Source of the DNA: a virus
IMG/VR virus record: IMGVR_UViG_3300045988_174665
Length of the DNA: 64,000 bases
Strand: one strand, 5' to 3'
The position numbers were made by a program, and so were the translations under genes. Positions 37,975-51,897 of the stretch are shown here, piece by piece (within the stretch, counting starts at the first letter, position 1; each line of letters begins with the position of its first letter). Under the pieces are notes generated by a model. The model did no database searches, was not told the origin of the DNA, and saw nothing but the letters and a program-made list of their open reading frames with translations.

Positions 37975-38901
37975 TTAATGTGCCAATACATCATAAGTAG
38001 AAATTACACTTAAATCTTTATAAATATTATTACCAATAAGGGCTTTGAATTTCTCTTTAGATGTCTGACTTTTTCTTAATCTTAATTCCATATGAAATTG
38101 AATTAAAACTGTTATATATAAATCTCTTTCGAGAATTGTTTTATACATATCGTGATGATAAGGAACTGTCGTTTTATTAACTAAATATGCGTATGCAGAA
38201 ACAAATTGATGGTTATAATAATGAGATATTCCTTTATCATCTTTAGTTTCCGTAAATATCTTTCCAATATCGTGATACTGTAAAACTTCTACAAGAATGT
38301 CTTTTTCATAATTTTCTTTTGCTAAAGTAGCCGCAGTATCCATATGTAATCCGATTGGAAAAGAATGATGTGGATTGTTATGATTGATTGTTCGTGAAAT
38401 ACTTAATAGACTATCTAAATCCTGTGTTGGCAAAAGGTTATTCTTATTTTGAATGATTCTAATATCATCCCAACCTTCATAGTAATAAGGAACAGTAAAA
38501 TGCTGTAGCTGTTTGTAAATTACTTCAGCTGGAACAACAACCTCTCGGGTTGAATCTGCTTTTCTTTTAAAAATTTCCTTTAAAGATGCAATTGCCACTA
38601 CACATATCTTTTTACACGGTATTTTTTCAATACTTTTTAAAAAGTGAACTCGTCTTTTAAAGCTGAGATTTGTTGCATCATAAATAACATTTTTGCCCTC
38701 TTTTAAATCCGCAATAACACGATTTCCTAACTTTGAAAAAATCTTTTGCGGGTTCGCTTGTATATTGGCATCACCATAAAGCTCCTTTCTAATAGCATCA
38801 GAGGAATGAATGACGCCATTATATTTAATTGCAATTTCTTTTGCTAAAGTTGACTTGCCGCTGTAGCTAAGTCCAACCATCATAATAAAATAATTCGTCA
38901 T
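37975..38901 (-). CDS. P-loop polynucleotide-kinase-like / HD phosphohydrolase fusion
   Basis: Walker A GLSYSGKST at the N-terminus; HHSFP...QYHDIGK HD motif in the C-terminal half. Confidence 0.7.
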   Translation of the reverse strand: MTNYFIMMVGLSYSGKSTLAKEIAIKYNGVIHSSDAIRKELYGDANIQANPQKIFSKLGNRVIADLKEGKNVIYDATNLSFKRRVHFLKSIEKIPCKKICVVAIASLKEIFKRKADSTREVVVPAEVIYKQLQHFTVPYYYEGWDDIRIIQNKNNLLPTQDLDSLLSISRTINHNNPHHSFPIGLHMDTAATLAKENYEKDILVEVLQYHDIGKIFTETKDDKGISHYYNHQFVSAYAYLVNKTTVPYHHDMYKTILERDLYITVLIQFHMELRLRKSQTSKEKFKALIGNNIYKDLSVISTYDVLAH

Positions 38902-38915
38902 TTCTCTTTCTCTCC

Positions 38916-39734
38916 TTAACCAAAATAACCACTATAATCTAAGATTACTGGCTGATTAGTTTTAAAATCAAAACCTACATTACCTGCGTGAATATCATTT
39001 ATATGCATCTCATTAATAAAAATGGACAATTCTTCAAAATCCTGCCAATTCAAGCGGTTCTGAAAAAGATTGTCAATTGCAATATTATCCCCAACCTCTC
39101 CTTTTTCAGATGGAGTTGACCAAGAAACCAGTGATGAGGGAGCCTTAGAACAGGGAGTACAAAAAACATAAGAACCTGTACAATATCCCTCTTCACTATC
39201 GTATCTCTGCTCGTGAGCATAATACTTTTCTACCTCTTCAGTGCAAACCCTTACTCTTTCAGAGATATAAAAAGGATAACCATAAAAATATCCTAAAAAA
39301 TAAGTTCCCGCAAAGCATTGCCTTACTTGTGAAAAATCAGCTTCCAGAATTTGAGTTAAGATAGCTTCTTTTTTACAATAATCAATTGCTTCTTTGTAGT
39401 CATCTTTAGTAAGATTATGATAATCTTTATTAAAGTTACTAATCAAATGAGAAGTATATTCCTCATTTGGAATTGTACAATTTCTTTCATCAGTAAAAGG
39501 AACTTTAATTACATAATCTTTACCAAACTGGTATTTTATAATAATAACCCCTTTTGTTGCCCCACTGTCACTTTCATACCAAGCGTTACCAGTTTCATAT
39601 CTTCCGAAAGCTTTCCTTTGCCAGTTATGAAAACTGGTACTTGTGCCATTAAGTATAAAAGTATCAAAAGAATACTTTTTTACCAAGTCTTCAATTACTT
39701 TTTTAAAAAATAAACGAACTTTATTTTCAATCAT
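38916..39734 (-). CDS. hypothetical protein, possible kinase-like fold
   Basis: C-terminal NDIHAGNVGFD...ILDYSG resembles the catalytic-loop/DxG of small-molecule kinases. Confidence 0.35.
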   Translation of the reverse strand: MIENKVRLFFKKVIEDLVKKYSFDTFILNGTSTSFHNWQRKAFGRYETGNAWYESDSGATKGVIIIKYQFGKDYVIKVPFTDERNCTIPNEEYTSHLISNFNKDYHNLTKDDYKEAIDYCKKEAILTQILEADFSQVRQCFAGTYFLGYFYGYPFYISERVRVCTEEVEKYYAHEQRYDSEEGYCTGSYVFCTPCSKAPSSLVSWSTPSEKGEVGDNIAIDNLFQNRLNWQDFEELSIFINEMHINDIHAGNVGFDFKTNQPVILDYSGYFG

Positions 39735-39766
39735 TCTTTTCTCGCCTTTCTTTATTTTCTATATAT

Positions 39767-39795
39767 ATTATATAAAAAATTTTTTAAAAAAACAA
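39767..39795 (-). promoter_or_regulatory. sigma70-type promoter
   Basis: Minus sense TTGTTT-17-TATAAT. Confidence 0.5.
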
Positions 39796-39798
39796 GTT

Positions 39799-40051
39799 TT
39801 AAAAAATTACCTGATATGAAACACCATAATTAATAATTGAACAAGATAAATCAATTTTATTTTTAAAAGCTATCTTAAATACCTGACATATAGAAGGAGG
39901 GAATAAGGAAAACTCTGGTGAATACTGAATATAGACCTTAAAAAATTTCAAAAATTTTCTGCTGTTTTTTAGGAGTGACTTTAAAGCAATCACCACCAAC
40001 CTCTTGTGTGAATATGTTTTTCTTTAAAAAAATATAATCTCCTATCTTCAT
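39799..40051 (-). pseudogene. small gene interrupted by a 1-nt frameshift in a T6 run
   Basis: MKIGDYIFLKKNIFTQEVGGDCFKVTPKKQQKIFEIF | KVYIQYSPEF...YQVIF. The frames join at plus-strand A6 39940-39945. ATGA overlap with the upstream gene. Confidence 0.4.
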
Positions 40052-40920
40052 TTTAATGCTCCTTTCTCCTTCATTTCTGTTAATCTTACTGCTACTTCTA
40101 CAGTTATAGTATCAAAATACTCAAGAAAAATCTGTTGCAAAAGTCCTGATGCGTTTTTTTCTGACCATTTTTTATCTGTGTCTAAAGTATAGGTTTTATC
40201 GTCTTCAAATAATTCTATCGAAGGAATCTCATAAAATTTTTCTGGCGACAAATCTTCTTTAAATATATTGATTAAATTATTAACATTAGAAAAAGTGATT
40301 GCTTTATATTCTTCTGCATTATATTTATATTCAAGAATCATGCGAGAAGAAAAACCAGAAAAATTTGTGTACATTTCTGAAATTGAGACACCGTCGAAAA
40401 TTGCAAATAACCAATTAATATGGTAAAAAACTCTATACCACTTTTGTTTGCAACGAGAACAACTAGTTATCATTCCCATCACTTGACGATAAAGAACAGA
40501 ATAATTTTGAAAAAATACCTGATTAACTTTTGATTTAAGCTGTTCGTAAAATTCTTTATATAATGGATTAACTCTTATTGTGCTACTTAGAATTGGTTCA
40601 AAATAGGTAAAATTTCCTTTAAAGAAACTTGTAATAAACTTTCTGATATCAACAGTCTTAATCTTTCCATTATTTACTACAAGCTCATGGCAATCAATCT
40701 GTTTGTTTAGACAAAATTCTTCATAGGTTGGAAAAATGACCGCCACAGCATCATAATCACTTAGATTTGTTGCTAATTCATAATTTTGACTGCCAATTAA
40801 AGATATAAAGAAAATTTCTCTGCCACCGTCGCTTAAAATTTTTTCATAACCCCTTAATATTGCATCTACTTTATCTGCATAGTCCTTATTTAACAGACTT
40901 ACCCTATCGTATCTATACAT
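40048..40920 (-). CDS. Pol-beta-superfamily nucleotidyltransferase (RNA-repair-associated type)
   Basis: LIGSQNYELATNLSDYD matches the GS..Y(G/E)....SD.D motif. Confidence 0.6.
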   Translation of the reverse strand: MYRYDRVSLLNKDYADKVDAILRGYEKILSDGGREIFFISLIGSQNYELATNLSDYDAVAVIFPTYEEFCLNKQIDCHELVVNNGKIKTVDIRKFITSFFKGNFTYFEPILSSTIRVNPLYKEFYEQLKSKVNQVFFQNYSVLYRQVMGMITSCSRCKQKWYRVFYHINWLFAIFDGVSISEMYTNFSGFSSRMILEYKYNAEEYKAITFSNVNNLINIFKEDLSPEKFYEIPSIELFEDDKTYTLDTDKKWSEKNASGLLQQIFLEYFDTITVEVAVRLTEMKEKGALK

Positions 40921-40949
40921 TTTTTCGCCCCTTTTTATTTTCTATATAT

Positions 40950-40978
40950 ATTATATAAAAAATTTTTTAAAAAAGCAA
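40950..40978 (-). promoter_or_regulatory. sigma70-type promoter
   Basis: Minus sense TTGCTT-17-TATAAT. Confidence 0.55.
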
Positions 40979-40979
40979 A

Positions 40980-41001
40980 AAAAGAGAGGTTAACCTCTCT
41001 T
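40980..41001. terminator. hairpin terminator
   Basis: AAAGAGAGG-TTAA-CCTCTCTTT. Confidence 0.55.
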
Positions 41002-42194
41002 TAATCGTGATGCTTAAGCAGATATTCTCTCGAAACATTTTTAAAGCTAAAATCAGTCTTTGGATTTCTCAATACAATTCCCTCTCTATATACAGAAGGA
41101 TTAACAACCGACTTCGCAGTCGCAACTTTCTTAAATTCGTCCAAATCTTTAGGAAGCTTATAATGAGCATCGAGAATTGGGACAAATTTCATTCCCATTT
41201 CATTTACCACCAATTGTGCCTCAGTAGAAGGTACTCTACCTCTGTCTGAACGAATAAAATTAAAGATGTATAAATCATCTTCTTTGAGCTTCAAAGGATT
41301 ACCTTGAACGCTGCCTACAGATTCGCCTTGAACACAAACATAATCAAGCTCAGGATTCTGTTTTAAATATGTTTCAAGTTGCTCTCTAATATGGTATTTA
41401 AAAGCCATATCCCAATAAATGTTATGGTCGTGATAGCAATTTTGTTTCTCATCTTTCTGTCTTATATTTCGAGAAAGAACATAAAATTCAAACTTATTTC
41501 TTCTCTTCTTTTTTCTTTCAAGAATATAAGTTGAAGAAGTACCGTCCAACTTCTCAGTTACAATCCAATCATCCTCATTATTAAGAATAAAGGGAATGTT
41601 CTCAACTCTCTCTTCGTCGGTTTTATGAATATAAGGGAAGTGAGTTGGAAAAGCCTTTGGACTATCTTTCTTTTTGCCCAAAAAGACAAAGAGAAGTTTT
41701 CTACCCCACTCCCTCTTCATAAGCCAACGGAATGGCTTCTTTTTCATAATATTTTTATGTCTTGCCGCCATTGACATATATTTAATATCTTTAGCTTTGT
41801 TAGCCTTACGAATATTATCATCTTGAGAAATATAAGTTACTCCAAGCTTCTGTCCAACATCAGAATGAAGTGGTAAATCTTTAAATTCTGGAAAAGCAGA
41901 CAGCGGCATTAGAAGTCCTTGTGAAATAACTTTACACATTCTTTGAGTCTTTACTTTAAAATTACGCTTTGCCATAAAAGTAAATCTCTCATCGTTGTCA
42001 GGAACTTTTGAGTCAATTTCAAAGTAAATACCTTTCTTTTTAGTTTCGTCATTAGGGTCAAAGTCGCCCTTTCCTACTACGCAATGCCAGCCACCAACAG
42101 TTGCTAATTCAACCCTATCGTAACCTTCCAATGGAGTGACCTTATCAACCTCTACAATATAAGCTAACATTCTCTCGCCTTTTTCGTTTAACAT
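41001..42194 (-). CDS. ATP-dependent RNA ligase (DRB0094-like)
   Basis: N-terminal OB-like AYIVEVDKVTPLEGYDRVELATVGGWHCVV; adenylyltransferase motif I TEKLDGTS. Confidence 0.8.
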   Translation of the reverse strand: MLNEKGERMLAYIVEVDKVTPLEGYDRVELATVGGWHCVVGKGDFDPNDETKKKGIYFEIDSKVPDNDERFTFMAKRNFKVKTQRMCKVISQGLLMPLSAFPEFKDLPLHSDVGQKLGVTYISQDDNIRKANKAKDIKYMSMAARHKNIMKKKPFRWLMKREWGRKLLFVFLGKKKDSPKAFPTHFPYIHKTDEERVENIPFILNNEDDWIVTEKLDGTSSTYILERKKKRRNKFEFYVLSRNIRQKDEKQNCYHDHNIYWDMAFKYHIREQLETYLKQNPELDYVCVQGESVGSVQGNPLKLKEDDLYIFNFIRSDRGRVPSTEAQLVVNEMGMKFVPILDAHYKLPKDLDEFKKVATAKSVVNPSVYREGIVLRNPKTDFSFKNVSREYLLKHHD

Positions 42195-42460
42195 TATACA
42201 TCATCCTTCCATTTTTTCGTTCTCATTTCAATAATATAATCTATTACTTTTTCATATTCTGTTTCTGTTAAAGAAAGTAGTGGCACGACTGTCTTATCAA
42301 AATTTGAAAAACCCGCCATTTTCATAAAGTCATTAACAAATTCTCCGATTACCCTATAGGTATCAATTCCCAATTCGGGGTATGTATCTCTTGATACTCT
42401 ACTCACTGTTTTAGAACCAATCTCATTGGTATTTTCATAGCTCATTTTTAACTTAATCAT
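42194..42460 (-). CDS. hypothetical protein
   Basis: ORF track. Confidence 0.45.
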   Translation of the reverse strand: MIKLKMSYENTNEIGSKTVSRVSRDTYPELGIDTYRVIGEFVNDFMKMAGFSNFDKTVVPLLSLTETEYEKVIDYIIEMRTKKWKDDV

Positions 42461-42698
42461 TTTTATAATCCTCCAACTTAACGAGTTTTAAAACTCGATA
42501 GACCTCGGGAGGTACAAAACCAAGTTTTTGCAAATCTTCATCCTTTTCTATTTGGTGGTATACAGAAATTCCATCTTCAAGAAAAACAATACTATCTCCT
42601 ACAATAAGTTCTGACCAATTAACAGCGTCACTTAATTCAAATAACTGACCGTCAATTTTTAAAACTATATTATCAAACTTTATTGGTCTGGTTATCAT
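42453..42698 (-). CDS. hypothetical protein
   Basis: Start moved to MITRPIK because the ORF-track N-terminus overlaps the promoter. Confidence 0.45.
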   Translation of the reverse strand: MITRPIKFDNIVLKIDGQLFELSDAVNWSELIVGDSIVFLEDGISVYHQIEKDEDLQKLGFVPPEVYRVLKLVKLEDYKND

Positions 42699-42729
42699 TT
42701 TAAAACTCCTTTTCTTATTTTCTATAAAT

Positions 42730-42758
42730 ATTATATAGAATTTTTTTAAAAAAAGCAA
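42730..42758 (-). promoter_or_regulatory. sigma70-type promoter
   Basis: Minus sense TTGCTT-17-TATAAT. Confidence 0.55.
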
Positions 42759-42759
42759 A

Positions 42760-44412
42760 TTATAAATATTGTTTAATTAACTCAGAAAAGTTTCTTAAAA
42801 AATGAATCGAAATGGTGTCTTTTTGTAGGGCCGCTGTTCGCTGTATATCCCAAGCATTTTTAATGCCTGCCTGAGATTGCTGCGTTGGATAAAGTATTTC
42901 TGGAGTTGTAATAGTAACTCGAACCAATTTAGATAAATTTTTTTCTTTTGTATAATCTGTAATTGCCCGATAAATTAAATATAAGAAAAAGGACAAGGGA
43001 ATTAATATACCGTTCAAGTTCATAATGTGAATAGCATTTGTGGTTGTTTCTTTAAAATCTCCAATAGAAGAGGCATCGTCAAATAATAAATATGCCACAT
43101 CCTGAGCTAATAAACGGCTTAAATCTTCTTTATAATTTTCTTGATTACCAATTGCCCCTTTTCCTAATTGTAAAATTGCTCCAACCACATAAACAAAATT
43201 TTTATCTATATTAGAGAAAATTTCTTTAAAAGAATCCATTTTAATAGCTGTGCCGGCGGAGTAACCTCTCTTAGAAAAGTTTTCATTTAAGGTATATAAT
43301 TTAGAAGAACTATAAACAATAAAGCCATTATTAATTTTATCTAATCTCTGTCTTAAAATTTCAAATGCTCTATTATTATCCACATAATTACCTAAAGAGT
43401 TTTCTTTTGTAATTTTTTCTATAGCGTCTTTATCTATACCATAAGTATAAATATTATCCGCTTTAATCTTTTTCTCTCCAGAACCAATTCCTTCAATTTT
43501 GTATCCTTGATTTTTATTGTTTTGTAACATAAAGATGAAGTTTTCCAAAAATTCTTGTTCTAAACCGCCTTGACCAGCCGCTGTCTGCATAGCAACTTTG
43601 TTCTTTCTAGTGTTACCCAAAATCGCCTGTTTACAACTCATTAAGCTAACTCCTCTTTTACTTTTACTTTCTTTAATTCTCTTTTTAATTGAATTTTTAA
43701 TTTTATCAACTTGATACACTTGGCACATATTCCGCACGAAGGGGTTGGTGGCAGCCTTGCCTCTATATTTTTCTAAAGCTTCTACAACTTCGGCATAAGC
43801 GTTAGAATAATCTTTCCCAGTTTTATTTAATCCATTTTCTTGATTAGCACTGAATTGTAAAATTAAAGCTTCTTGTACAATTTCTGGCATTACCTCGTCA
43901 ATTACATTTTCAATTGCTGAATTAATTTTTACTCCTTTTTTAATTTGACTAATAATTTTTCGAGAAATTTTTCCCTCATATTTATCCCAAACCTTACCAA
44001 AATAAGTGCCAAAAAAGGCAGTAACTGTTTTTTGTCCCTTGGTATTCTTTATTAAGGCTACATTTCTTTCATAAACTTTTTTTAAGTTCATCGTTTCATT
44101 AAGAAGCTCAATTATTTTCTTTGCTCCATCTGCGGAGGCTGTCGAATCTTTTACTCCCCTTCCTACATTAATACCATAAACTTTTCTTAAAAGGGCTTTT
44201 TCTTTCTTTTCTTCATTTTGAGCTAGTCTTAATAATTGCTTGGCAGCGGTGACGTCTTCTGAACCCAGAGCATTTCTGAATTTACCACCGTCCCTCAAAT
44301 TTCTTTTAATTGTATCGTAAGTTTTTCTATAAGTCGGTCCACTGTCTTTTAATCTTTCGTAAAAAACATACATACTAGACAAAGAGCGACTTTGTATGTC
44401 TAAAGCTGGCAT
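42760..44412 (-). CDS. large hypothetical protein
   Basis: ORF track, 550 aa, GGAGG RBS; no motif recognised. Confidence 0.55.
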   Translation of the reverse strand: MPALDIQSRSLSSMYVFYERLKDSGPTYRKTYDTIKRNLRDGGKFRNALGSEDVTAAKQLLRLAQNEEKKEKALLRKVYGINVGRGVKDSTASADGAKKIIELLNETMNLKKVYERNVALIKNTKGQKTVTAFFGTYFGKVWDKYEGKISRKIISQIKKGVKINSAIENVIDEVMPEIVQEALILQFSANQENGLNKTGKDYSNAYAEVVEALEKYRGKAATNPFVRNMCQVYQVDKIKNSIKKRIKESKSKRGVSLMSCKQAILGNTRKNKVAMQTAAGQGGLEQEFLENFIFMLQNNKNQGYKIEGIGSGEKKIKADNIYTYGIDKDAIEKITKENSLGNYVDNNRAFEILRQRLDKINNGFIVYSSSKLYTLNENFSKRGYSAGTAIKMDSFKEIFSNIDKNFVYVVGAILQLGKGAIGNQENYKEDLSRLLAQDVAYLLFDDASSIGDFKETTTNAIHIMNLNGILIPLSFFLYLIYRAITDYTKEKNLSKLVRVTITTPEILYPTQQSQAGIKNAWDIQRTAALQKDTISIHFLRNFSELIKQYL

Positions 44413-44423
44413 AATTCCTCCTA

Positions 44424-44450
44424 TAAAAAAAGAGCGTTATTCACGCTCTT
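44424..44450 (-). terminator. intrinsic terminator
   Basis: AAGAGCG-loop-CGCTCTT hairpin followed by T7 in the minus sense. Confidence 0.6.
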
Positions 44451-44481
44451 ATGTATATAAAACAGCCTCTATTGAAGCCGA

Positions 44482-45243
44482 TTAGGACAATTGTACAACC
44501 TCGTCCAGTAATAAAGTCATATTGGAAGTTAATGGTTGGTTTGCGTGGAAATGCCCACAATACCAATGTGTGAAAGTAATTTTATCATAAACCTCTTCTA
44601 AAAATTCTTCCATAGAAGTATCCGCTTCTCCATAATTAAAAGGAAGAAATAATTCTGTGGGTTCATATTTAAGTGGACAAGTATGACTAAAAATATAATC
44701 ATATGAGTTATTTTTTGAAATAATTTCAAAAATTTCCTTTTTCTTCTCTTCATCCATTTGTTCATCGGGATACCAATATCCCCTTTTATGAACTACTCTC
44801 CAATATTTATCAATTGAATACGCCCCACCAAGTACAAGACACTTTTTCCCTAAAATTGTAATTACTCCATCATCAGGGAATAAAATATTAGAATACTTTT
44901 TTTCTACCCAACAATTACATTTTAAATCTCCTCTACATTGAATTTTTTGATAAGAAGGAATATGCTCGGGGCGGCAATCGTGATTACCTTGAATACAAAT
45001 TAAAGTAATTGGTAAATTACTAATTTTTTGCTTAATCTTTTCTCTATAAGACTTACTTTTATCTATAAGAGGCTCTCCCCATTTTAAACCAGTATTCATT
45101 TCATCATAAATATATCCATAATTGATTCCAGTATCACCCAAAAGAATTAAATAATCTTCTTTAGTGGTATTATTTTCCCTGCAAAATTGAGGTAAAAAGC
45201 CAAACTGACCGTGAGTATCCCCTCTTACAAAAATTCTTCCCAT
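44482..45243 (-). CDS. Ser/Thr-phosphatase-type metallophosphoesterase
   Basis: GDTHGQ, LGDTG, GNHD and GHFH motifs. Start moved to MGRIFVRGD because the ORF-track N-terminus overlaps tRNA-Gln. Confidence 0.8.
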   Translation of the reverse strand: MGRIFVRGDTHGQFGFLPQFCRENNTTKEDYLILLGDTGINYGYIYDEMNTGLKWGEPLIDKSKSYREKIKQKISNLPITLICIQGNHDCRPEHIPSYQKIQCRGDLKCNCWVEKKYSNILFPDDGVITILGKKCLVLGGAYSIDKYWRVVHKRGYWYPDEQMDEEKKKEIFEIISKNNSYDYIFSHTCPLKYEPTELFLPFNYGEADTSMEEFLEEVYDKITFTHWYCGHFHANQPLTSNMTLLLDEVVQLS

Positions 45244-45261
45244 TCCTTTCTCCTCTCTTAT

Positions 45262-45285
45262 ATACAAAAATCCCTTATAAAGGGA
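45262..45285 (-). terminator. terminator at the end of the tRNA island
   Basis: TCCCTT-TAT-AAGGGA hairpin followed by T5 in the minus sense. Confidence 0.5.
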
Positions 45286-45288
45286 ACT

Positions 45289-45363
45289 TGGCAGCGGAGA
45301 AGAGAATCGAACTCCTACCCGTTGGGTCAAAGCCAACTGTACTAACCGTTATACTACTCCGCT
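45289..45363 (-). tRNA. tRNA-Gln(TTG)
   Basis: Full cloverleaf, anticodon loop CTTTGAC, GGAGTTCGATTCTC T-arm, encoded CCA. Confidence 0.85.
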
Positions 45364-45999
45364 ATATTTAATTTAATAACTTATTTTAGCCATATAAAGA
45401 CCTTCGCCTTACTTTGATTTAGTTTTCTTCTATATTCAGCCACTAAGAAAACATACTTGAGCCTTGGGGAGCTACCCCAAAACGATATGCCCTATACCTC
45501 TTTAGAGGCAACTAAGCTTAGAAGGGAATGATTACCCTTAACTTTCACCCACCATCCAAAAAATATAATATCTTTTTAACATAAAAGGTATTTTCATCAT
45601 TGTTTTTCTATTTACGGTATTGAGCTACTCGCACATTAAACTTGCCTTATAGTTAAGTTACCTTAACATCACTACCACACCCCTTATTTGAGTTACTAAG
45701 GTTTGCTAATTTCTCAGGTTAGCCTAACTTAGCTTATTCTTTCACTGAAAGCGTCTATTACGGAGCGGACAAGAATTTGCCTTTAAAAGCAACTAATCAA
45801 GCACATCTTTCCCACCAAGAAGACCCGTCTTTTATCTCCGCCCTTATTAGGTCACCCTAATAAGTTCTCGTTGATTTAAAGTATCCTTAAAATCCTTACT
45901 AATTGGAATTATTGGAAAGATTCTCGGCACGATGGCATTCGTCTTCACCGAGGTTTATATGATTAAAATAAACTATTAAATTTTCAAGGTACAATTAAA
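45364..45999 (-). ncRNA. 636-nt ORF-free structured spacer (candidate large ncRNA)
   Basis: No ORF in either strand. Many local helices: TTGGGG/CCCCAA, CTTATTAG/CTAATAAG, AAGGG/CCCTT, CTCGG/CCGAG, GTTAAG/CTTAAC. Visibly richer in G+C than the flanking DNA. Confidence 0.35.
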
Positions 46000-47113: not shown

Positions 47114-47252
47114 AAATTTAATAAGAATGACACTCTTTGCTTGTATATTCGCAATGACCATCTCATTCTTATCTTTAAATTACTTAAAACCAGAGGGTGA
47201 CAATCCTCATTTCCATAAAGGCGATAGATGCCCGTTCTATCCTTGGTTTTAA

Positions 47253-48192: not shown

Positions 48193-48273
48193 TGGAGCAG
48201 ATGAAGAGAATCGAACTCCTGCTATCAGTTTCAGTTCGGAGAACTGATGTACTAACCACTATACTACATCTGC
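48193..48273 (-). tRNA. aberrant tRNA (loop TCTCCGA, C33; 10-nt variable region)
   Basis: Good acceptor, D- and T-arms (body paralogous to tRNA-Gln). Anticodon stem TCAGT/ACTGA, with the ACTGA strand duplicated. Confidence 0.55.
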
Positions 48274-48822: not shown

Positions 48823-48950
48823 ATGGCTAGAGTGGTTGGACTCGAACCAACTTATATTCGGAAATTTAAAGTTCTTATAATATAGATTAAAAGTCTATTC
48901 CTAATGGGTAGAAGGATGAACCTCAACAGCCGAATATTTATTTAACTTAC
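48823..48950 (-). ncRNA. signature hairpin RNA unit A (followed by an orphan T-arm and ..GCCA tail)
   Basis: P1 ATATTCGG/CCGAATAT, GGCU, UUCAUCCUUCUA, then GTTGG-TTCGAGT-CCAAC-CACTCTAGCCA. Own promoter upstream. Confidence 0.5.
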
Positions 48951-48957
48951 ATTAAAT

Positions 48958-48986
48958 ATTATAGCATATATTTTATTATTTGTCAA
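48958..48986 (-). promoter_or_regulatory. internal promoter for unit A
   Basis: Minus sense TTGACA-17-TATAAT with an extended TGC. Confidence 0.6.
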
Positions 48987-49014: not shown

Positions 49015-49148
49015 ATGCGGTAATTTTAACATCTACATAATACTATTGCACTACCAACTGTGCTACATCCCGCTTTAATGGGATGGTGGGAATCGAACCC
49101 ACATCACATAGTCCCCTGATATAGAAGGATGATGTTAGTCAGCCGCAT
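49015..49148 (-). ncRNA. signature hairpin RNA unit B carrying a permuted tRNA-like domain (YrlA-like architecture)
   Basis: P1 ATGCGG/CCGCAT and P2 TAACATC/GATGTTA, with GGCU and AUCAUCCUUCUA. The inner module at 49042-49112 has a T-arm, a capped 6-bp acceptor helix, U8-A9 and a D-arm with GG, closed by ACTAT/ATAGT. Confidence 0.6.
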
Positions 49149-49197
49149 ATTTTTTATATTGTGGAAATTTGTTTCTCTAAAATCTTAATCCCAAATC

Positions 49198-49240
49198 AAG
49201 TGCTTGTTAGCGTAGAAGGATGAAAAACAATAGCCACTTT
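49198..49240 (-). ncRNA. signature hairpin RNA unit C
   Basis: AAGTG/CACTT and UGUU/AACA helices; loop UUUCAUCCUUCUACGCU. Confidence 0.45.
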
Positions 49241-49250
49241 GAGAAAGAGA

Positions 49251-49313
49251 TGTGGGAATTTAATGCTCTTTTAAAACCGTTTATTATATAGAAGGATGAG
49301 CATTACAGCCACA
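49251..49313 (-). ncRNA. signature hairpin RNA unit D
   Basis: P1 TGTGG/CCACA, P2 TAATGCTC/GAGCATTA; the loop starts AUCCUUCUA. Confidence 0.5.
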
Positions 49314-49324
49314 AATTATAAATA

Positions 49325-49418
49325 GTGGAAATCGGACTTTCTATCTTATTATTATGGAGGTGGCTAAACCACCGAAATTCTTTTTTTTTCTTAGAAGGAA
49401 GAAAGTCCATAGCCACAA
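49325..49418 (-). ncRNA. signature hairpin RNA unit E
   Basis: P1 GTGG/CCAC, P2 GGACTTTCT/AGAAAGTCC, variant UUCCUUCUA, inner hairpin GGTGG-TTTAG-CCACC. Confidence 0.5.
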
Positions 49419-49440: not shown

Positions 49441-51720
49441 TTATAACAAAGCAAATAGTTCATCGGTATCAAAAGCTGTGACAATCGGAACTTCTGGCTT
49501 TTCCTTTATAACGGGTTTTGTGGTACCCGTAACCTCGTCAAACTCTTTTGCAATTTCATAAGGTACTGTTGTATCATTACTAAAAATGATATCCGCTTCA
49601 TTTCTATTTGTAACAATACTACCTCTTGCAATAGCGTTCATCATTACAAGGTCATAAATATTTGCCTTATTAAGATGTGTTAAACCATAGCAGGTTGCAG
49701 TTACACCCTGTAAATTACTTTCAAGATTATTGCCATAAAACCTCGGACTTCCATTCTGAAGGTTCATATCACACCAGATGAACTTACGCTCAACACAATC
49801 AAATATAACAGGTATAGCAACAGTACTATCAGCAGTTAAGTCAATCTTCATTTCAACTGTTTTCGGCTCGAATATCTCACCGCTATTTACATCTTCTCTT
49901 TCCATCCATCCGAAACGGCAATTGGGAAGCGTAGAAAAATGCTGTCGTGTAAAACTATAAACCTGAAATGCAATGTATCTACCAGCGTTTTTAGCAACTG
50001 CATCAATGTCCACATCAATAAACTCTGCTACACCATCACCGTTAATATTTCCGCCATTGGTAATGTCACCCGAATGATATGCTCTATATTTTGCAGAGCG
50101 AAGTTGTGTATATGATACACGGTCAACATACTGCCAATTTTCGTCATAAATGGTTGCAGAAAGGTCAATATCAACCCTGTCTTCACCCCAACCATTTCTC
50201 GCCTTATCGGTATTAGTCCACCAGATAAAACCACGAACAGCTGTAGCGTCTTTCTTAATGGGCAACTTACTACCACGAACAATGGTCTTAACAGCCTTAC
50301 TTGCACTTCTCTGACTAAACGGAACAAGATAATTTTTGAAATCCTCATCAATATAAACTTTTCCGAGGAAATCTTTTTCCTTATACTGTTCAATTAAAGC
50401 ATCACGGCAAATCGTTGCAATATTGTTACATACATTGCTATTGATTTTAGGAAGTTCATTTTTGATAACCATAGCTTTTGCAAGATTTCCCTTAGGAAAG
50501 AATACTCTTACAGGCTGATTATCATTCTCCATTCTTCCTATAAAATGCTGTCTTACCTGAAGAAGTACAGGAGTTGAAATTTTTGTTGCAACTTCTTTAA
50601 AACAGTTGACAATATAATTCGGATTATCTGCATCACGAATAAGTTTATCAAGTTGTCTTGCAAACTCTCCCGGTCTTGCCTTTAACAAGGTAGCGGCTTC
50701 ACGCATATCTTTTGCGGTAATTGCTGCCTGAACCTTTCCCGCAAACATAAGAGGCTTTTTCTCATTTCTTAAAGTATTAAATGCAGCGTTAACATTATGA
50801 TACTTTGCTTTTTTATATTCAAACGGATGAAGAATTTCTGCTACTCTAATCCATTCATACTGATAACGGAACAAATCCTCTGTTATATTACTACAACCAG
50901 CAAGCAAATCCATAATCATACGGCGTTCAACCCTACGAAGGTTTCTGTATTTAGTCCTTGAAGCAAGACTAATGTCGCCATTAGAAAGTGCTGTTACAAG
51001 TCGTAAAACATCTGTTGTAGTCTTGAAATATTTACTTATTGAATCAGCACTTTTGATTGGTGCTTTTTCAATAATAAGCTTTCCAATAAATGCAACATTC
51101 TCTTTAAGAGGAATTGTATTAGGAAGATATGTAGTATAATCGGGACAAGCAAGAATAATAGCTTCAATGTCCTCTTTATCCTGCTCCGAAATTGATGTCT
51201 TACTCTCAACAAGATTTGTGAAAATAGTCATCAAATCATCGTGACTTCCCATTGACAAAACAGTCATTTTATTGTCATCAATAAGTGGGAAACGCTCATC
51301 TTTTTCGTATTCGGGAATTAATGTACCAAATGACCAGTAATGAACGATTGCATTAACAAACAACTCGATATCACTTGCTTCTGCAACCTGCTGCGGGAAG
51401 TTCGGATACATTGGATTATATGTAACATCCGCACCAACAAGTTCTTTAAGTGCAGGAATAAGGGAACTATAAAAAGCAATAAAATTATCTCTTGTAAGAT
51501 GGAATACTTTTTCAAGAAGTTCCCTTGAAAATGTAAAGCCAAGAGCCTGAATATTTTTCAAGCCAGAAATAACAAGTGCCTTTTCTGCCTTATCCTGCTC
51601 ATAAGTCATATCGGCACTGCCAAAGTTAATCGTTACGAAATTGGCGGCAGGTTCAAACATTACCAAATGCTTACGGCGTAACAAAATCTTATCAAGTTCT
51701 GTTAATTTGAAATTCTTCAT
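49441..51720 (-). CDS. 759-aa protein: helical N-terminal domain (possible distant TROVE/Ro60-like) plus C-terminal TerD-like domain
   Basis: The C-terminus reads ...DIDLSATIYDENW..VSY......YRAYHSGDITNGG..GDGVAEFIDVDIDAV....RYIAFQVYSF, matching the TerD pattern (DLD...hSGDn.tG.gdgDdE.i.vdL). N-terminal strings INFGSADMTY, TKYRNLRRVERRMIMDLL...ILHP and FARQLDKLIR are colinear with TROVE landmarks as I recall them. Confidence 0.6.
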   Translation of the reverse strand: MKNFKLTELDKILLRRKHLVMFEPAANFVTINFGSADMTYEQDKAEKALVISGLKNIQALGFTFSRELLEKVFHLTRDNFIAFYSSLIPALKELVGADVTYNPMYPNFPQQVAEASDIELFVNAIVHYWSFGTLIPEYEKDERFPLIDDNKMTVLSMGSHDDLMTIFTNLVESKTSISEQDKEDIEAIILACPDYTTYLPNTIPLKENVAFIGKLIIEKAPIKSADSISKYFKTTTDVLRLVTALSNGDISLASRTKYRNLRRVERRMIMDLLAGCSNITEDLFRYQYEWIRVAEILHPFEYKKAKYHNVNAAFNTLRNEKKPLMFAGKVQAAITAKDMREAATLLKARPGEFARQLDKLIRDADNPNYIVNCFKEVATKISTPVLLQVRQHFIGRMENDNQPVRVFFPKGNLAKAMVIKNELPKINSNVCNNIATICRDALIEQYKEKDFLGKVYIDEDFKNYLVPFSQRSASKAVKTIVRGSKLPIKKDATAVRGFIWWTNTDKARNGWGEDRVDIDLSATIYDENWQYVDRVSYTQLRSAKYRAYHSGDITNGGNINGDGVAEFIDVDIDAVAKNAGRYIAFQVYSFTRQHFSTLPNCRFGWMEREDVNSGEIFEPKTVEMKIDLTADSTVAIPVIFDCVERKFIWCDMNLQNGSPRFYGNNLESNLQGVTATCYGLTHLNKANIYDLVMMNAIARGSIVTNRNEADIIFSNDTTVPYEIAKEFDEVTGTTKPVIKEKPEVPIVTAFDTDELFALL

Positions 51721-51748
51721 TATAATTAATCTCCTTTATTTTAATTTG

Positions 51749-51820
51749 TCGGTAATAATTGAAACTATTTTTAAGACTTAAATTTTCTTTTTATAGAAGG
51801 AAGTTTCAATATAGCCGTTA
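51749..51820 (-). ncRNA. signature hairpin RNA unit F (in the 5' leader of the 759-aa ORF)
   Basis: GGCU, P2 ATTGAAACT/AGTTTCAAT, variant CUUCCUUCUA. Ends about 12 nt before the ORF's RBS. Confidence 0.45.
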
Positions 51821-51897
51821 GGAAAAATTGATGGGAATTTTACACTCTATTCTTATAGCAAAAAGTTTTAGAAGGATGAATATTTTCAGCCACCAAC
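51821..51897 (-). ncRNA. signature hairpin RNA unit G
   Basis: TTGGTGG/CCATCAA pairing, GGCU, UUCAUCCUUCUA. Confidence 0.45.

What the first reader, a model, noticed from the sequence alone, without database searches (positions are those of the whole stretch)
49015..49148. Circularly permuted, acceptor-capped tRNA-like domain embedded in hairpin unit B
Reading the minus strand 5' to 3', the order of elements is:
1. ACTAT (3' strand of an anticodon-type stem).
2. GTGAT (variable loop).
3. GTGGG-TTCGATT-CCCAC (T-arm).
4. CATCCC (acceptor 3' strand).
5. ATTAAAGC (capping loop).
6. GGGATG (acceptor 5' strand).
7. TA (U8-A9).
8. GCAC-AGTTGGTA-GTGC (D-arm with G18G19).
9. A, then ATAGT (5' strand of the anticodon-type stem).

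Every cloverleaf helix is perfectly paired. However, the gene order is 3' half then 5' half, the acceptor end is closed by a loop with no CCA, and the anticodon loop is replaced by the P2/P1 stem of unit B.

This cannot be a decoding tRNA. It is the topology described for the tRNA-like module of YrlA-class Y RNAs. The alternative, a genuinely permuted tRNA gene needing circularisation, would be unprecedented in a phage.
Basis: partly seen in the sequence, partly recalled or inferred. Interest (0 to 1): 0.85.

Follow-up and report, generated by a model that had tools for sequence, protein, structure and literature searches.

The report
tRNA-mimic domain on phage handle RNA
A gut-phage small RNA carries a conserved, non-decoding copy of the tRNA body (the kind of mimic known from bacterial YrlA Y RNAs). 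It sits on a previously undescribed hairpin 'handle' that always accompanies one uncharacterised phage protein, which points to a new Y-RNA-like RNA-protein system inside a tRNA and RNA-repair gene cluster.

Summary
On the minus strand at 49112-49042 lies a tRNA body in permuted order: anticodon-stem 3' strand, V loop, T arm, loop-capped acceptor, U8-A9, D arm, anticodon-stem 5' strand. It sits inside a 132-nt hairpin unit (49147-49016). It is not chance. A covariance model built from relatives scores it 79 bits, against 35 bits or less for real tRNA-tRNA junctions. All four helices covary across 39 distinct copies. The Levitt pair 15:48 switches G:C to A:U, and the invariant bases are the tRNA tertiary-contact bases. 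Rfam YrlA hits the core at 37 bits, below its threshold, but a genuine mycobacteriophage YrlA scores only 32.5.

It is not a canonical YrlA. No Ro60/TROVE gene was detected, and the GNCGAA Ro-binding motif is absent. Instead the module sits on a new handle (GG-CUR ... UCCUUCUA ... AAUUY-CC) shared by seven units. These units flank a 759-aa helical-repeat + TerD protein gene. The RNA-gene pairing holds down to about 35% protein identity (handle variants at 24-32%). Sibling units often carry anticodon-stem-loop look-alikes (Lys, Pro).

Most likely it is a bait-on-a-handle RNP acting in tRNA repair or defence evasion. That function is inferred, not shown.

The parts
49016..49147 (-). Whole hairpin unit B (U6), 132 nt: handle plus tRNA-like payload
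   Evidence: Sequence. Orthologous units in relatives are 129-148 nt with the same architecture.
49143..49147 (-). P1 5' strand TGCGG. It pairs with CCGCA at 49020-49016. The GG/CC pairs are invariant.
   Evidence: Alignment A6: the three outer pairs change on both sides and the GG/CC pairs never vary. P1 pairing was required when the units were collected, so the 100% pairing is by construction.
49016..49026 (-). 3' internal-loop strand AAATTA (49026-49021) plus P1 3' strand CCGCA (49020-49016)
   Evidence: The AAUU(U/C/A)-CC element is conserved in all seven window units and in relatives.
49138..49142 (-). 5' internal-loop strand CTGAC (conserved CU-R)
   Evidence: GGCT[G/A] is conserved. The pattern GGCT-N8-14-TCCTTCT occurs 7 times in the window against 0.15 expected.
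49131..49137 (-). P2 5' strand TAACATC. It pairs with GATGTTA at 49033-49027.
   Evidence: 7 of 7 pairs change on both sides and 93.5% of cells are paired, in 24 full units. P2 pairing was not required when the units were collected.
49027..49033 (-). P2 3' strand GATGTTA
49122..49130 (-). Invariant single-stranded motif AUCCUUCUA at the top of P2. Putative protein-contact element.
   Evidence: TCCTTCT is invariant in A6. It clusters around the gene in all close loci. Clade-specific variants: UUACUUC in Weasels2 and GCUUUCAU in WXIN.
49108..49112 (-). Anticodon-type stem, 3'-strand equivalent (ACTAT, tRNA positions 39-43). It pairs with 49046-49042.
   Evidence: Helix 1: 5 of 5 pairs change on both sides and 91.8% are paired. 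This helix was not used to select sequences.
49103..49107 (-). Variable loop GTGAT (positions 44-48)
   Evidence: Position 48 covaries with position 15: GC 27, AU 9. The window copy is the single G-U case.
49086..49102 (-). T arm GTGGG-TTCGATT-CCCAC
   Evidence: G53, T54, T55, C56, A58 and C61 are invariant. Three of the 5 stem pairs change on both sides; the other two never vary.
49066..49085 (-). Acceptor helix closed by a loop: CATCCC (49085-49080), cap ATTAAAGC (49079-49072), GGGATG (49071-49066). No CCA.
   Evidence: 7 of 7 modelled pairs change on both sides. The window has 6 bp plus a C-A mismatch. By the stem-pattern search, relatives have 5-9 bp.
49064..49065 (-). U8-A9
   Evidence: U8 in 37 of 38 copies; A14 in 38 of 38.
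49048..49063 (-). D arm GCAC-AGTTGGTA-GTGC with A14, G15, G18, G19 and A21
   Evidence: G10, A14, G18, G19 and C25 are invariant; A21 is nearly so. Two of the 4 stem pairs change on both sides.
49042..49047 (-). A26 plus anticodon-type stem 5'-strand equivalent ATAGT (positions 27-31)
49441..51720 (-). Gene for the 759-aa alpha-helical-repeat + TerD-like protein: the proposed protein partner of the handle
   Evidence: No Pfam hit. phrog_33734. NCBIfam NF041916, 408 bits, below its 600-bit cut-off. AF2 model pLDDT 83.7. Handle units flank its homologues in 80 of 91 loci.
51830..51894 (-). Sibling handle unit U1, upstream of the gene. It lacks the tRNA-like insert carried by its orthologues in L012 and L017.
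51748..51819 (-). Sibling handle unit U2 (boundaries approximate)
49324..49417 (-). Sibling handle unit U3
49251..49313 (-). Sibling handle unit U4
49161..49238 (-). Sibling handle unit U5. Its payload is CTTGA-TTTGGGA-TTAAG (49200-49184), which looks like a tRNA-Pro(UGG) anticodon stem-loop.
48857..48934 (-). Sibling handle unit U7. Its payload is ATAGA-CTTTTAA-TCTAT (48898-48882), which looks like a tRNA-Lys(UUU) anticodon stem-loop.
48958..48986 (-). Consensus sigma-70 promoter (TTGACA-17-TATAAT, with TG) between unit B and U7
   Evidence: 12 of 12 matches. TTGACA and TATAAT elements are seen at the same position in relatives.

Best explanation
Unit B is a roughly 132-nt non-coding RNA built from two modules.

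Module 1 is a constant 'handle':
- P1 (5 bp, invariant GG/CC);
- an asymmetric internal loop (5'-CUR / 3'-AAUUY);
- P2 (7-9 covarying bp);
- a single-stranded AUCCUUCUA.
Seven units around one gene share this handle. It most likely anchors the RNA to that gene's product, a 759-aa alpha-helical-repeat + TerD-like protein.

Module 2 is the payload, a complete tRNA body. The acceptor is closed by a loop, and the D arm, T arm, variable loop and anticodon stem are all present. It should fold into the L shape, with an intact D-loop/T-loop elbow. It has no anticodon loop and no free CCA, so it cannot decode.

Proposed mechanism: the payload acts as bait for proteins that recognise the tRNA body, while the handle keeps it on the phage protein. 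Candidates are host tRNA-targeting nucleases or modifiers, or tRNA processing and repair enzymes. Sibling units present anticodon-stem-loop look-alikes on the same handle. Together they would form a tRNA-part display RNP that works with the neighbouring tRNA array and RNA healing-and-sealing genes to keep phage translation running when the host attacks tRNAs.

Shown here by computation:
- the structure and its conservation, including tertiary-pair covariation;
- the modular handle;
- the linkage between the RNAs and the gene.

Inferred, not shown:
- transcription and processing at P1;
- binding of the handle to the protein;
- the L-shaped fold;
- the bait or tether function.
For: Structure:
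- All elements are present.
- The module alone folds to the cloverleaf without an anticodon loop.
- ARAGORN accepts the re-permuted sequence as a tRNA.

Conservation:
- R1 finds the module at 55 bits or more in 32 of 81 related loci, always on the gene strand.
- 95.6% of cells are paired, and 17 of 21 pairs change on both sides. The covariation score is 0.81, against 0.20 shuffled and 0.07-0.20 slid.
- The Levitt pair 15:48 is GC in 27 copies and AU in 9.
- The invariant bases are U8, A14, G18, G19, G53, T54, T55, C56, A58 and C61.

Handle:
- P2 changes on both sides at 7 of 7 pairs.
- The pattern GGCT-N8-14-TCCTTCT occurs 7 times in the window (0.15 expected), all flanking the gene on its strand.
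- It is present in 80 of 91 loci, down to about 35% protein identity.
- Analogous hairpins with clade-specific motifs sit next to the homologues in Rhodococcus phage Weasels2 (32% identity; one carries the same permuted tRNA-like module) and Mycobacterium phage WXIN (24%).

Kinship with YrlA:
- Rfam YrlA matches at 37 bits over model positions 23-85.
- R1 detects the authentic Bxz1 YrlA at 44.4 bits.

Context:
- P-loop kinase, RlaP nucleotidyltransferase, RNA ligase and metallophosphoesterase genes, 16 tRNAs and ROOL RNA.

Sibling payloads:
- 32 of 123 distinct short units hold a hairpin with a 5-bp stem and a 7-nt loop carrying U33 and R37. Shuffles give a mean of 6.3 and a maximum of 13.
- The commonest loops are CUUUUAA (Lys), CUGCAAA (Cys), UUUGGGA (Pro) and CUGAAAA (Phe).
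Against: - There are no expression, end-mapping or binding data.
- The protein partner is inferred only from conserved adjacency and from motif variants that track the protein clade.
- The protein has no recognised RNA-binding domain. Structure searches give only weak alpha-solenoid matches.
- Two cellular homologues (Pleionea, Streptomyces) have no tRNA-like module nearby, and a look at the Pleionea upstream spacer showed no obvious handle. Lactobacillus phage LpeD has no tRNA-like module; only the downstream region was inspected there.
- Only about 40% of related loci show the tRNA-like payload within 2.5 kb, so it is an optional payload.
- The seed copies for R1 were collected with a filter that required paired T, acceptor and D stems. 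The alignment counted was fitted to the model. Both inflate the pairing percentages. Helix 1, P2 and the 15:48 pair were not pre-selected.
- The window copy has G15-U48 rather than a canonical Levitt pair.
Confidence: 0.6

Rival explanations
1. It is a canonical YrlA Y RNA. Its partner would be a Ro60/TROVE ring protein: either the neighbouring 759-aa protein as a cryptic, highly diverged TROVE, or a host or phage Ro60 encoded elsewhere. The tRNA-like module would tether an exoribonuclease or repair enzyme, as in the Salmonella and Deinococcus Ro60 RNPs.
For: - The module has the same topology and tertiary signature as YrlA.
- YrlA genes lie next to RNA-repair genes in Salmonella (PMC7790460 abstract).
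- The N-terminal 400 residues are an alpha-helical repeat. A BFVD search gave one weak hit to a 'TROVE domain-containing protein' of a crAss-like phage (E 3.8e-3, TM 0.23/0.30).
Against: - No TROVE Pfam hit in any of 42 family members, nor in the 21 largest of the 34 ORFs of 150 aa or more in the window.
- hhalign of the family profile against the genuine Ro60 of phage Bxz1 (TROVE + vWA_Ro60) gives probability 0.1%.
- Foldseek against PDB, with the full-length model and with the N-terminal model, lists no Ro60 in the top 50.
- The C-terminal domain is TerD-like, not vWA.
- The GNCGAAN0-1G motif that marks the Ro60-binding strand is absent from the unit. The Bxz1 YrlA region carries GGCCGAGAG and GGCCGAAGG.
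Confidence: 0.12
2. The units are free decoys or sponges, or cis-acting sites on the operon transcript, and do not form an RNP with the neighbouring protein. For example, the handle could be a processing or stability signal recognised by a host RNase. The tRNA-like module would then soak up a host tRNA-binding toxin on its own.
For: - tRNA-part mimicry in the payloads.
- A strong consensus promoter drives the Lys-type unit.
- There are no intrinsic terminators between units on the minus strand, which suggests a processed polycistron like the tRNA array.
Against: - The handle is tied to this one gene across 24-91% protein identity. In the two distant phages inspected (Weasels2, WXIN), the handle motif differs along with the protein clade. 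That fits a coevolving RNA-protein interface better than a host RNase site.
- tRNA genes in the same arrays lack the handle.
Confidence: 0.18
3. It is a genuine permuted or split tRNA precursor. Cleavage in the cap loop (RNase P plus 3' trimming and CCA addition) would yield a two-piece, aminoacylatable tRNA-like molecule. Alternatively, circularisation and ligation by the phage RNA ligase would rebuild a tRNA.
For: - M. smegmatis YrlA with a 7-bp acceptor is cut by RNase P and receives CCA in vivo.
- Some relatives have a 7-bp acceptor followed by ACCA in the cap loop (L018, L019, L077, L086).
- An RNA ligase gene lies 7 kb away.
Against: - No copy has an anticodon loop. The anticodon-type stem always opens into the conserved handle.
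- The window copy has only 6 acceptor pairs and no CCA.
- No bulge-helix-bulge motif is evident in the unit (reading of the sequence). Bacteria are not known to have a splicing endonuclease for such motifs (background knowledge).
- Cap loops vary freely in length (2-17 nt) and sequence.
Confidence: 0.04
4. It is a decaying remnant of two adjacent tRNA genes (3' half of one, 5' half of the next), or the tRNA-like domain of a permuted tmRNA, and has no function of its own.
For: - The unit lies inside a tRNA array.
- tRNA-tRNA junctions give weak R1 hits.
- Rfam tmRNA_permuted gives a weak hit (19.3 bits, E 0.52).
Against: - The two acceptor strands pair with each other, as do the two anticodon-stem strands. 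Neighbouring tRNAs do not do this.
- 79 bits here against 35 bits or less for real junctions.
- ARAGORN finds no flanking tRNA or tmRNA.
- Compensatory changes across lineages show selection on the fold.
- A full D arm is present and there is no tag reading frame.
Confidence: 0.02

Closest known systems
YrlA RNAs (Rfam RF02553): Ro60-associated bacterial and mycobacteriophage Y RNAs with a tRNA-like effector domain (Chen et al. 2014, PMC4201824; Wang et al. 2018, bioRxiv 10.1101/312249)
   Same: - The order of elements is the same: V, T arm, loop-closed acceptor, D arm, closed by a stem that leads to the protein-binding module.
- The tRNA tertiary bases are conserved and the Levitt pair covaries.
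- There is no free CCA.
- It is encoded on the same strand as, and next to, the presumed protein partner, with sibling RNAs that lack the tRNA module (as with YrlB).
- RNA-repair genes are nearby.
- Detection works both ways.
   Different: - No Ro60/TROVE partner was detected.
- There is no GNCGAA motif.
- The handle is different and sharply conserved (GG-CUR / UCCUUCUA / AAUUY-CC).
- Seven units surround the gene here, against the two or so Y RNAs per species described for Ro60 loci.
- Siblings carry anticodon-stem-loop look-alikes rather than pyrimidine-rich loops.
- The payload can be present or absent at orthologous positions.
Deinococcus radiodurans Yrn1 / metazoan Y RNAs with Ro60
   Same: Modular logic: a conserved stem binds the protein, and a variable module tethers an effector (PNPase for Yrn1).
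   Different: In Yrn1 the T-like and D-like elements have a different orientation, and the handle keeps the metazoan-type bulged helix. Metazoan Y RNAs have no tRNA module. The protein partner is Ro60.
Circularly permuted tRNA genes of Cyanidioschyzon merolae and other algae or archaea (recalled from memory, not tested here)
   Same: The 3' half of the tRNA is encoded upstream of the 5' half, and the acceptor strands are joined by a short linker.
   Different: Those genes mature through a circular intermediate, using a bulge-helix-bulge splicing endonuclease and ligase, into a normal decoding tRNA with an anticodon loop. Here there is no anticodon loop at all, and a conserved non-tRNA handle takes its place.
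Two-piece (permuted) tmRNA tRNA-like domain
   Same: Permuted order, with the T arm and acceptor 3' strand ahead of the acceptor 5' strand. It is also a tRNA mimic.
   Different: tmRNA has a free alanine-accepting CCA end, a reduced D arm, pseudoknots and a tag ORF. None of these is present here. ARAGORN finds no tmRNA, and the Rfam hit is insignificant.

Membership tests
YrlA / Ro60-associated Y RNA (RF02553) | tRNA-like domain with V, T arm, closed acceptor-like stem and D arm in that 5'-to-3' order | tested here: met
   Sequence. The Rfam alignment covers model positions 23-85. All four helices covary.
YrlA / Ro60-associated Y RNA (RF02553) | Conserved tRNA tertiary nucleotides and compensatory 15:48 Levitt pair | tested here: met
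   Invariant or nearly invariant: U8, A14, G18, G19, A21, G53, T54, T55, C56, A58 and C61. Position 15:48 is GC 27, AU 9, GU 1 and AC 1. The window copy is the G-U case.
YrlA / Ro60-associated Y RNA (RF02553) | GNCGAAN0-1G motif near the 5' end (presumed Ro60 contact) | tested here: not met
   The motif is absent from 49147-49016. The handle reads GGCUGAC... The Bxz1 YrlA region has GGCCGAGAG and GGCCGAAGG.
YrlA / Ro60-associated Y RNA (RF02553) | Encoded within about 4 kb of, and on the same strand as, a Ro60 (TROVE + vWA) gene | tested here: not met
   No TROVE hit in the 21 largest of the 34 ORFs of 150 aa or more in the window, nor in 42 homologues of the adjacent protein. hhalign against Bxz1 Ro60 gives probability 0.1%. 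Smaller ORFs and a host-encoded Ro60 were not examined.
YrlA / Ro60-associated Y RNA (RF02553) | Reaches the Rfam gathering score (69 bits) | tested here: inconclusive
   37 bits here and 36-51 bits in relatives. The authentic Bxz1 YrlA also reaches only 32.5 bits, so the threshold does not discriminate for phage copies.
YrlA / Ro60-associated Y RNA (RF02553) | Physical association with Ro60; tRNA-type modifications (pseudouridine 55, dihydrouridine) | not testable with these tools
   Needs immunoprecipitation and modification mapping.
Functional (decoding) tRNA, including permuted tRNA genes | 7-nt anticodon loop and a free or creatable NCCA 3' end on a 7-bp acceptor | tested here: not met
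   No anticodon loop in any of 39 distinct copies. The window acceptor is 6 bp and capped by ATTAAAGC. ARAGORN is negative in linear and circular mode.
Permuted tmRNA | Tag reading frame, pseudoknots and an alanine-type acceptor with CCA | tested here: not met
   ARAGORN finds no tmRNA. Rfam tmRNA_permuted scores 19.3 bits, E 0.52.
Handle-RNA family proposed here (GG-CUR ... UCCUUCUA ... AAUUY-CC units next to the solenoid-TerD protein gene) | P1 and P2 helices, conserved internal loop and UCCUUCU motif, gene-strand location flanking the protein gene | tested here: met
   Unit B shares the handle with the six other window units.

The most novel reading that the evidence does not exclude
The solenoid-TerD protein and its array of handle RNAs would form a previously unrecognised phage RNP class that is functionally parallel to Ro60/Y RNA but unrelated in protein and handle. 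Its RNAs would display interchangeable pieces of tRNA: the whole body without its anticodon loop in unit B, and anticodon stem-loops of Lys, Pro, Cys, Phe and others in sibling units. These pieces would act as baits that capture, neutralise or report host tRNA-targeting defence nucleases. The RNP would work together with the adjacent tRNA array and the RNA healing-and-sealing enzymes.
Probability: 0.3. Interest if true: 0.9.

Novelty: new variant of a known kind. Interest (0 to 1): 0.78.

Why it matters
YrlA-type tRNA mimics are so far known only as partners of Ro60, and what their tRNA-like domain does is still an open question (PMC4201824; bioRxiv 10.1101/312249).

This work finds the same mimic grafted onto a different, sharply conserved handle next to a different protein. 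The arrangement occurs in phages of Clostridia-type gut communities (source names on close homologues), Rhodococcus and Mycobacterium. That suggests the tRNA-body mimic is a portable effector module that has been adopted by at least two kinds of RNP.

The sibling units carrying anticodon-loop look-alikes, and the surrounding tRNA and RNA-repair genes, give a concrete hypothesis to test: tRNA-part baits against host tRNA-targeting immunity.

The work also assigns a candidate function, and candidate RNA ligands, to a large family of 'TerD family' or hypothetical phage proteins. Rhodococcus phage Weasels2 and Mycobacterium phage WXIN are cultured phages in which this could be tested.

Tried and rejected
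- **Near and distant DNA searches of GenBank phages** with the locus gave no match. No annotated relative could be used directly.
- **PDB sequence searches** with the protein and with its profile gave nothing, or only a marginal TerD hit (E 0.32).
- **Foldseek against PDB**, with the full model and with an N-terminal-only model, gave only insignificant alpha-solenoid hits and no Ro60. The single BFVD 'TROVE' hit (E 3.8e-3, TM about 0.3) is too weak to count as evidence.
- **PADLOC** found no defence-system match for the protein or for the neighbouring 550-aa ORF.
- **Cellular homologues** (Pleionea, Streptomyces RING_SCO0854) and **Lactobacillus phage LpeD** showed no tRNA-like module nearby.
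- **UCCU pairing with a downstream GGGA/AGGA** was considered. It is present in only part of the family, so it was not included in the model.
- **The MFE's alternative 8-bp helix** was rejected because relatives do not conserve it.
- **tRNA-dimer junction and permuted tmRNA** were considered and rejected.
- **Literature searches** (YrlA; permuted tRNA + bacteriophage; TerD/TROVE/Y RNA; SCO0854/Prok-RING) found no description of this handle or of this RNA-protein pairing.
Full report
**1. The observation**

- ACTAT (49112-49108)
- GTGAT (49107-49103)
- GTGGG-TTCGATT-CCCAC (49102-49086)
- CATCCC (49085-49080)
- ATTAAAGC (49079-49072)
- GGGATG (49071-49066)
- TA (49065-49064)
- GCAC-AGTTGGTA-GTGC (49063-49048)
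- A (49047)
- ATAGT (49046-49042)

All four helices are perfectly paired. The flanks form an outer hairpin:
- P1: TGCGG (49147-49143) with CCGCA (49020-49016)
- P2: TAACATC (49137-49131) with GATGTTA (49033-49027)
- AUCCUUCUA (49130-49122) sitting on top of P2

ARAGORN tRNAs on this strand between 45289 and 53090, but nothing here. The module alone folds to the cloverleaf without an anticodon loop as its minimum-energy structure (-22.8 kcal/mol). In the whole unit that fold lies 0.9 kcal/mol above the MFE. The MFE replaces the 5-bp anticodon-type stem with an 8-bp helix that relatives do not conserve. I re-joined the halves in silico in the normal tRNA order with an arbitrary 7-nt loop. ARAGORN then calls a tRNA every time, whereas the native unit is rejected in both linear and circular mode.

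**2. Is it more than chance?**

Rfam's YrlA model aligns 49044-49110 at 37 bits. The E-value is 1.1e-5 for a 4-kb search, and the alignment covers model positions 23-85, which are exactly the T arm, capped acceptor and D arm.

I fetched 90 related loci through the neighbouring protein. I collected copies of the permuted module with a stem-pattern search. Those overlapping real tRNAs were removed. I then built covariance model R1.
- In the window, R1 gives 79.2 bits for this site. Genuine tRNA-tRNA junctions score 35.5 bits or less.
- Across 81 loci, 32 have a copy at 55 bits or more, always on the strand of the protein gene.

On 39 distinct copies:
- 95.6% of cells are paired.
- 17 of 21 pairs show changes on both sides.
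- The covariation score is 0.81, against 0.20 for shuffles and 0.07-0.20 when partners are slid.

The seed filter demanded paired T, acceptor and D stems, and the alignment is model-fitted, so those percentages are somewhat inflated. The anticodon-type stem was never selected for, yet it changes on both sides at 5 of 5 pairs.

Two features cannot come from the selection:
- The 15:48 Levitt pair is G:C in 27 copies and A:U in 9. This is the same compensatory switch reported for YrlA.
- The invariant columns are U8, A14, G18, G19, G53, T54, T55, C56, A58 and C61.

The module therefore very probably forms the tRNA L shape with an intact elbow.

**3. What it is embedded in**

Unit B is one of seven units in the window that share a handle:
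- P1 with invariant GG/CC
- 5'-CU(G/A)
- P2
- (A/U)UCCUUCU(A)
- a variable payload
- the P2 3' strand
- AAUU(U/C/A)
- CC

The pattern GGCT-N8-14-TCCTTCT occurs 7 times against 0.15 expected. All seven are on the minus strand: two just upstream and five just downstream of ORF 49441-51720. The same pattern occurs in 80 of 91 fetched loci, almost exclusively on the gene strand and hugging the gene. In 24 full-length tRNA-bearing units, P2 changes on both sides at 7 of 7 pairs (93.5% paired, not pre-selected).

Analogous hairpins with clade-specific versions of the motif lie next to the homologues in two cultured phages:
- Rhodococcus phage Weasels2 (32% protein identity). The motif is UUACUUC, with a 3' GCUCA element. 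One of its four hairpins carries the same permuted tRNA-like module.
- Mycobacterium phage WXIN (24% identity). The motif is GCAGG-CUC...GCUUUCAU...UUUCC-CUGC.

The payload is optional. The window's upstream unit U1 (51894-51830) lacks the tRNA-like insert that its orthologues in L012 and L017 carry.

**4. The neighbouring protein**

The 759-aa product gave the following results:
- No Pfam hit.
- It belongs to phrog_33734.
- It matches NCBIfam NF041916 (MXAN_6230/SCO0854 RING family) at 408 bits, below the 600-bit cut-off. It has no RING-domain Pfam hit.
- Sources name it 'TerD family protein'.
- An AlphaFold2 model (pLDDT 83.7) shows about 400 residues of alpha-helical repeats, a small alpha/beta region, a beta-sandwich at 485-655, and a C-terminal alpha/beta region.
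- TerD is detected by Pfam in 5 of 42 members, and marginally against PDB entry 2kxt.

It is not detectably Ro60:
- No member hits TROVE.
- hhalign against the genuine Ro60 of phage Bxz1 (TROVE + vWA_Ro60) gives probability 0.1%.
- Foldseek against PDB, with the full model and with an N-terminal-only model (pLDDT 86.2), lists only insignificant solenoids such as exportins, CAND1 and importins.
- The one hint is a weak BFVD hit to a phage TROVE protein (E 3.8e-3, TM 0.23/0.30).
- None of the 21 largest of the 34 ORFs of 150 aa or more in the window hits TROVE.

**5. Calibration against a real phage YrlA**

Upstream of Bxz1 gp220 (Ro60), R1 finds the authentic YrlA tRNA-like domain at 44.4 bits. 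Rfam's own model gives it only 32.5 bits, again over positions 23-87. So missing the Rfam gathering score (69) says little for phage copies. The two kinds of module recognise each other.

The Bxz1 RNAs carry the GNCGA-type motif (GGCCGAGAG, GGCCGAAGG) in a long G+C-rich stem. Unit B has neither. The tRNA-like module is therefore of the YrlA kind, but the handle and the presumed partner are different.

**6. Context and sibling payloads**

The locus lies in a tRNA and RNA-repair region containing:
- a P-loop kinase (37975-38901)
- an RlaP nucleotidyltransferase (40048-40920)
- an RNA ligase (41001-42194)
- a metallophosphoesterase (44482-45336)
- ROOL RNA
- skipping-rope RNA
- 16 tRNAs

A perfect sigma-70 promoter with an extended -10 (48986-48958) sits between unit B and U7. 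TTGACA and TATAAT elements appear at the same position in relatives. No minus-strand terminator separates the units.

Among 123 distinct short units, 32 carry a hairpin with a 5-bp stem and a 7-nt loop that has U33 and R37. Shuffles give a mean of 6.3 and a maximum of 13. The commonest loops are:
- CUUUUAA (Lys UUU)
- CUGCAAA (Cys)
- UUUGGGA (Pro)
- CUGAAAA (Phe)

In the window, U5 shows the Pro-type loop and U7 the Lys-type loop. The family thus displays tRNA parts on a common handle. Unit B shows everything except the anticodon loop, and several siblings show only the anticodon arm.

**7. Mechanism**

The best-supported reading is a modular RNP analogous to Ro60/Y RNA. The handle anchors the RNA to the solenoid-TerD protein. 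This is inferred from adjacency conserved down to 24% identity and from motif variants that track the protein clade.

The tRNA-body payload would engage proteins that read the tRNA elbow and acceptor. I favour a bait or tether role directed at host tRNA-targeting enzymes or at tRNA repair and processing factors. The reasons are the anticodon-loop look-alikes in sibling units and the adjacent healing-and-sealing genes.

Expression, processing, protein binding and function are all untested.

Relatives with 7-bp acceptors followed by ACCA could be cut by RNase P and carry CCA, as M. smegmatis YrlA does. The window copy, with 6 bp and no CCA, probably is not.

**8. Novelty**

tRNA-like Y RNAs have been known since 2014, including in 22 phages, but always next to Ro60. 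Nothing in Rfam 15 matches the handle. The literature searches found no description of it or of this RNA-protein pairing.

I class the finding as a new variant of a known kind. It is a YrlA-type tRNA mimic recruited to a different handle and partner. There is a substantial chance that the whole handle-RNA plus protein system is a new RNP class.

Noticed in passing
window 45379-45976 (-): Full-length ROOL RNA (RF03087, 301.6 bits) sits inside the tRNA array, between tRNA-Gln and tRNA-Gly.
   Followed up: no
window 47185-47251 (-): Skipping-rope RNA motif (RF02924, 44.3 bits; gathering score 36.7), directly downstream (3') of tRNA-Ile(tat) on the minus strand.
   Followed up: no
window 51894-51748, 49417-49161 and 48934-48857 (-): Six further hairpin units share unit B's handle (GG-CUR ... 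UCCUUCUA ... AAUUY-CC). They flank the 759-aa gene. This RNA family is not in Rfam 15.
   Followed up: partly
window 49200-49184 and 48898-48882 (-); loci L012-L091: Payloads of sibling units look like anticodon stem-loops: U5 has CTTGA-TTTGGGA-TTAAG (Pro UGG) and U7 has ATAGA-CTTTTAA-TCTAT (Lys UUU). Family-wide, 32 of 123 short units have such hairpins, against 6.3 expected from shuffles.
   Followed up: partly
window 48986-48958 (-): Perfect sigma-70 promoter (TTGACA-17-TATAAT with TG) lies between unit B and U7. TTGACA and TATAAT elements appear at the same place in L001, L004, L006 and L010.
   Followed up: partly
window 48851-48824 (-): An orphan T arm (GTTGG-TTCGAGT-CCAAC) followed by CACTCTAG-CCA lies between U7 and tRNA-Ser. 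No matching acceptor 5' strand or D arm is present upstream. A similar orphan precedes tRNA-Ser in L015 (6244-6274). It is unexplained. It may be the remnant of a second tRNA-like unit that is present at this position in L012.
   Followed up: partly
window 51894-51830 (-) vs L012:2260-2396 and L017:1714-1849: The window's upstream unit U1 has lost (or never gained) the roughly 75-nt tRNA-like insert that its orthologues carry. The handle stays intact. The payload therefore behaves as a swappable cassette.
   Followed up: partly
window 37975-45336 (-): RNA healing-and-sealing gene set: P-loop kinase (AAA_33), RlaP nucleotidyltransferase, RNA ligase with a PHA02142 OB domain, an unknown 550-aa ORF, and a metallophosphoesterase.
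   Followed up: partly
L018:4975-5046, L019:5358-5429, L077:1582-1667, L086:280-359: In these relatives the 7-bp acceptor 3' strand is followed by ACCA at the start of the cap loop, as in a tRNA gene with an encoded CCA. This hints at RNase P and CCA-type processing, or at recent descent from tRNA genes.
   Followed up: no
L011 (Rhodococcus phage Weasels2) 5908-6297; L095 (Mycobacterium phage WXIN) 2413-2827: Unannotated intergenic arrays of four and five handle-like hairpins lie next to the homologous 'hypothetical protein' in cultured actinophages. An RtcB ligase gene lies about 3 kb downstream in Weasels2.
   Followed up: partly
window 48193-48273 (-): A second tRNA-Gly(tcc), 81 nt long, has a 7-nt insertion in the variable region relative to the Rfam tRNA consensus.
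   Followed up: no
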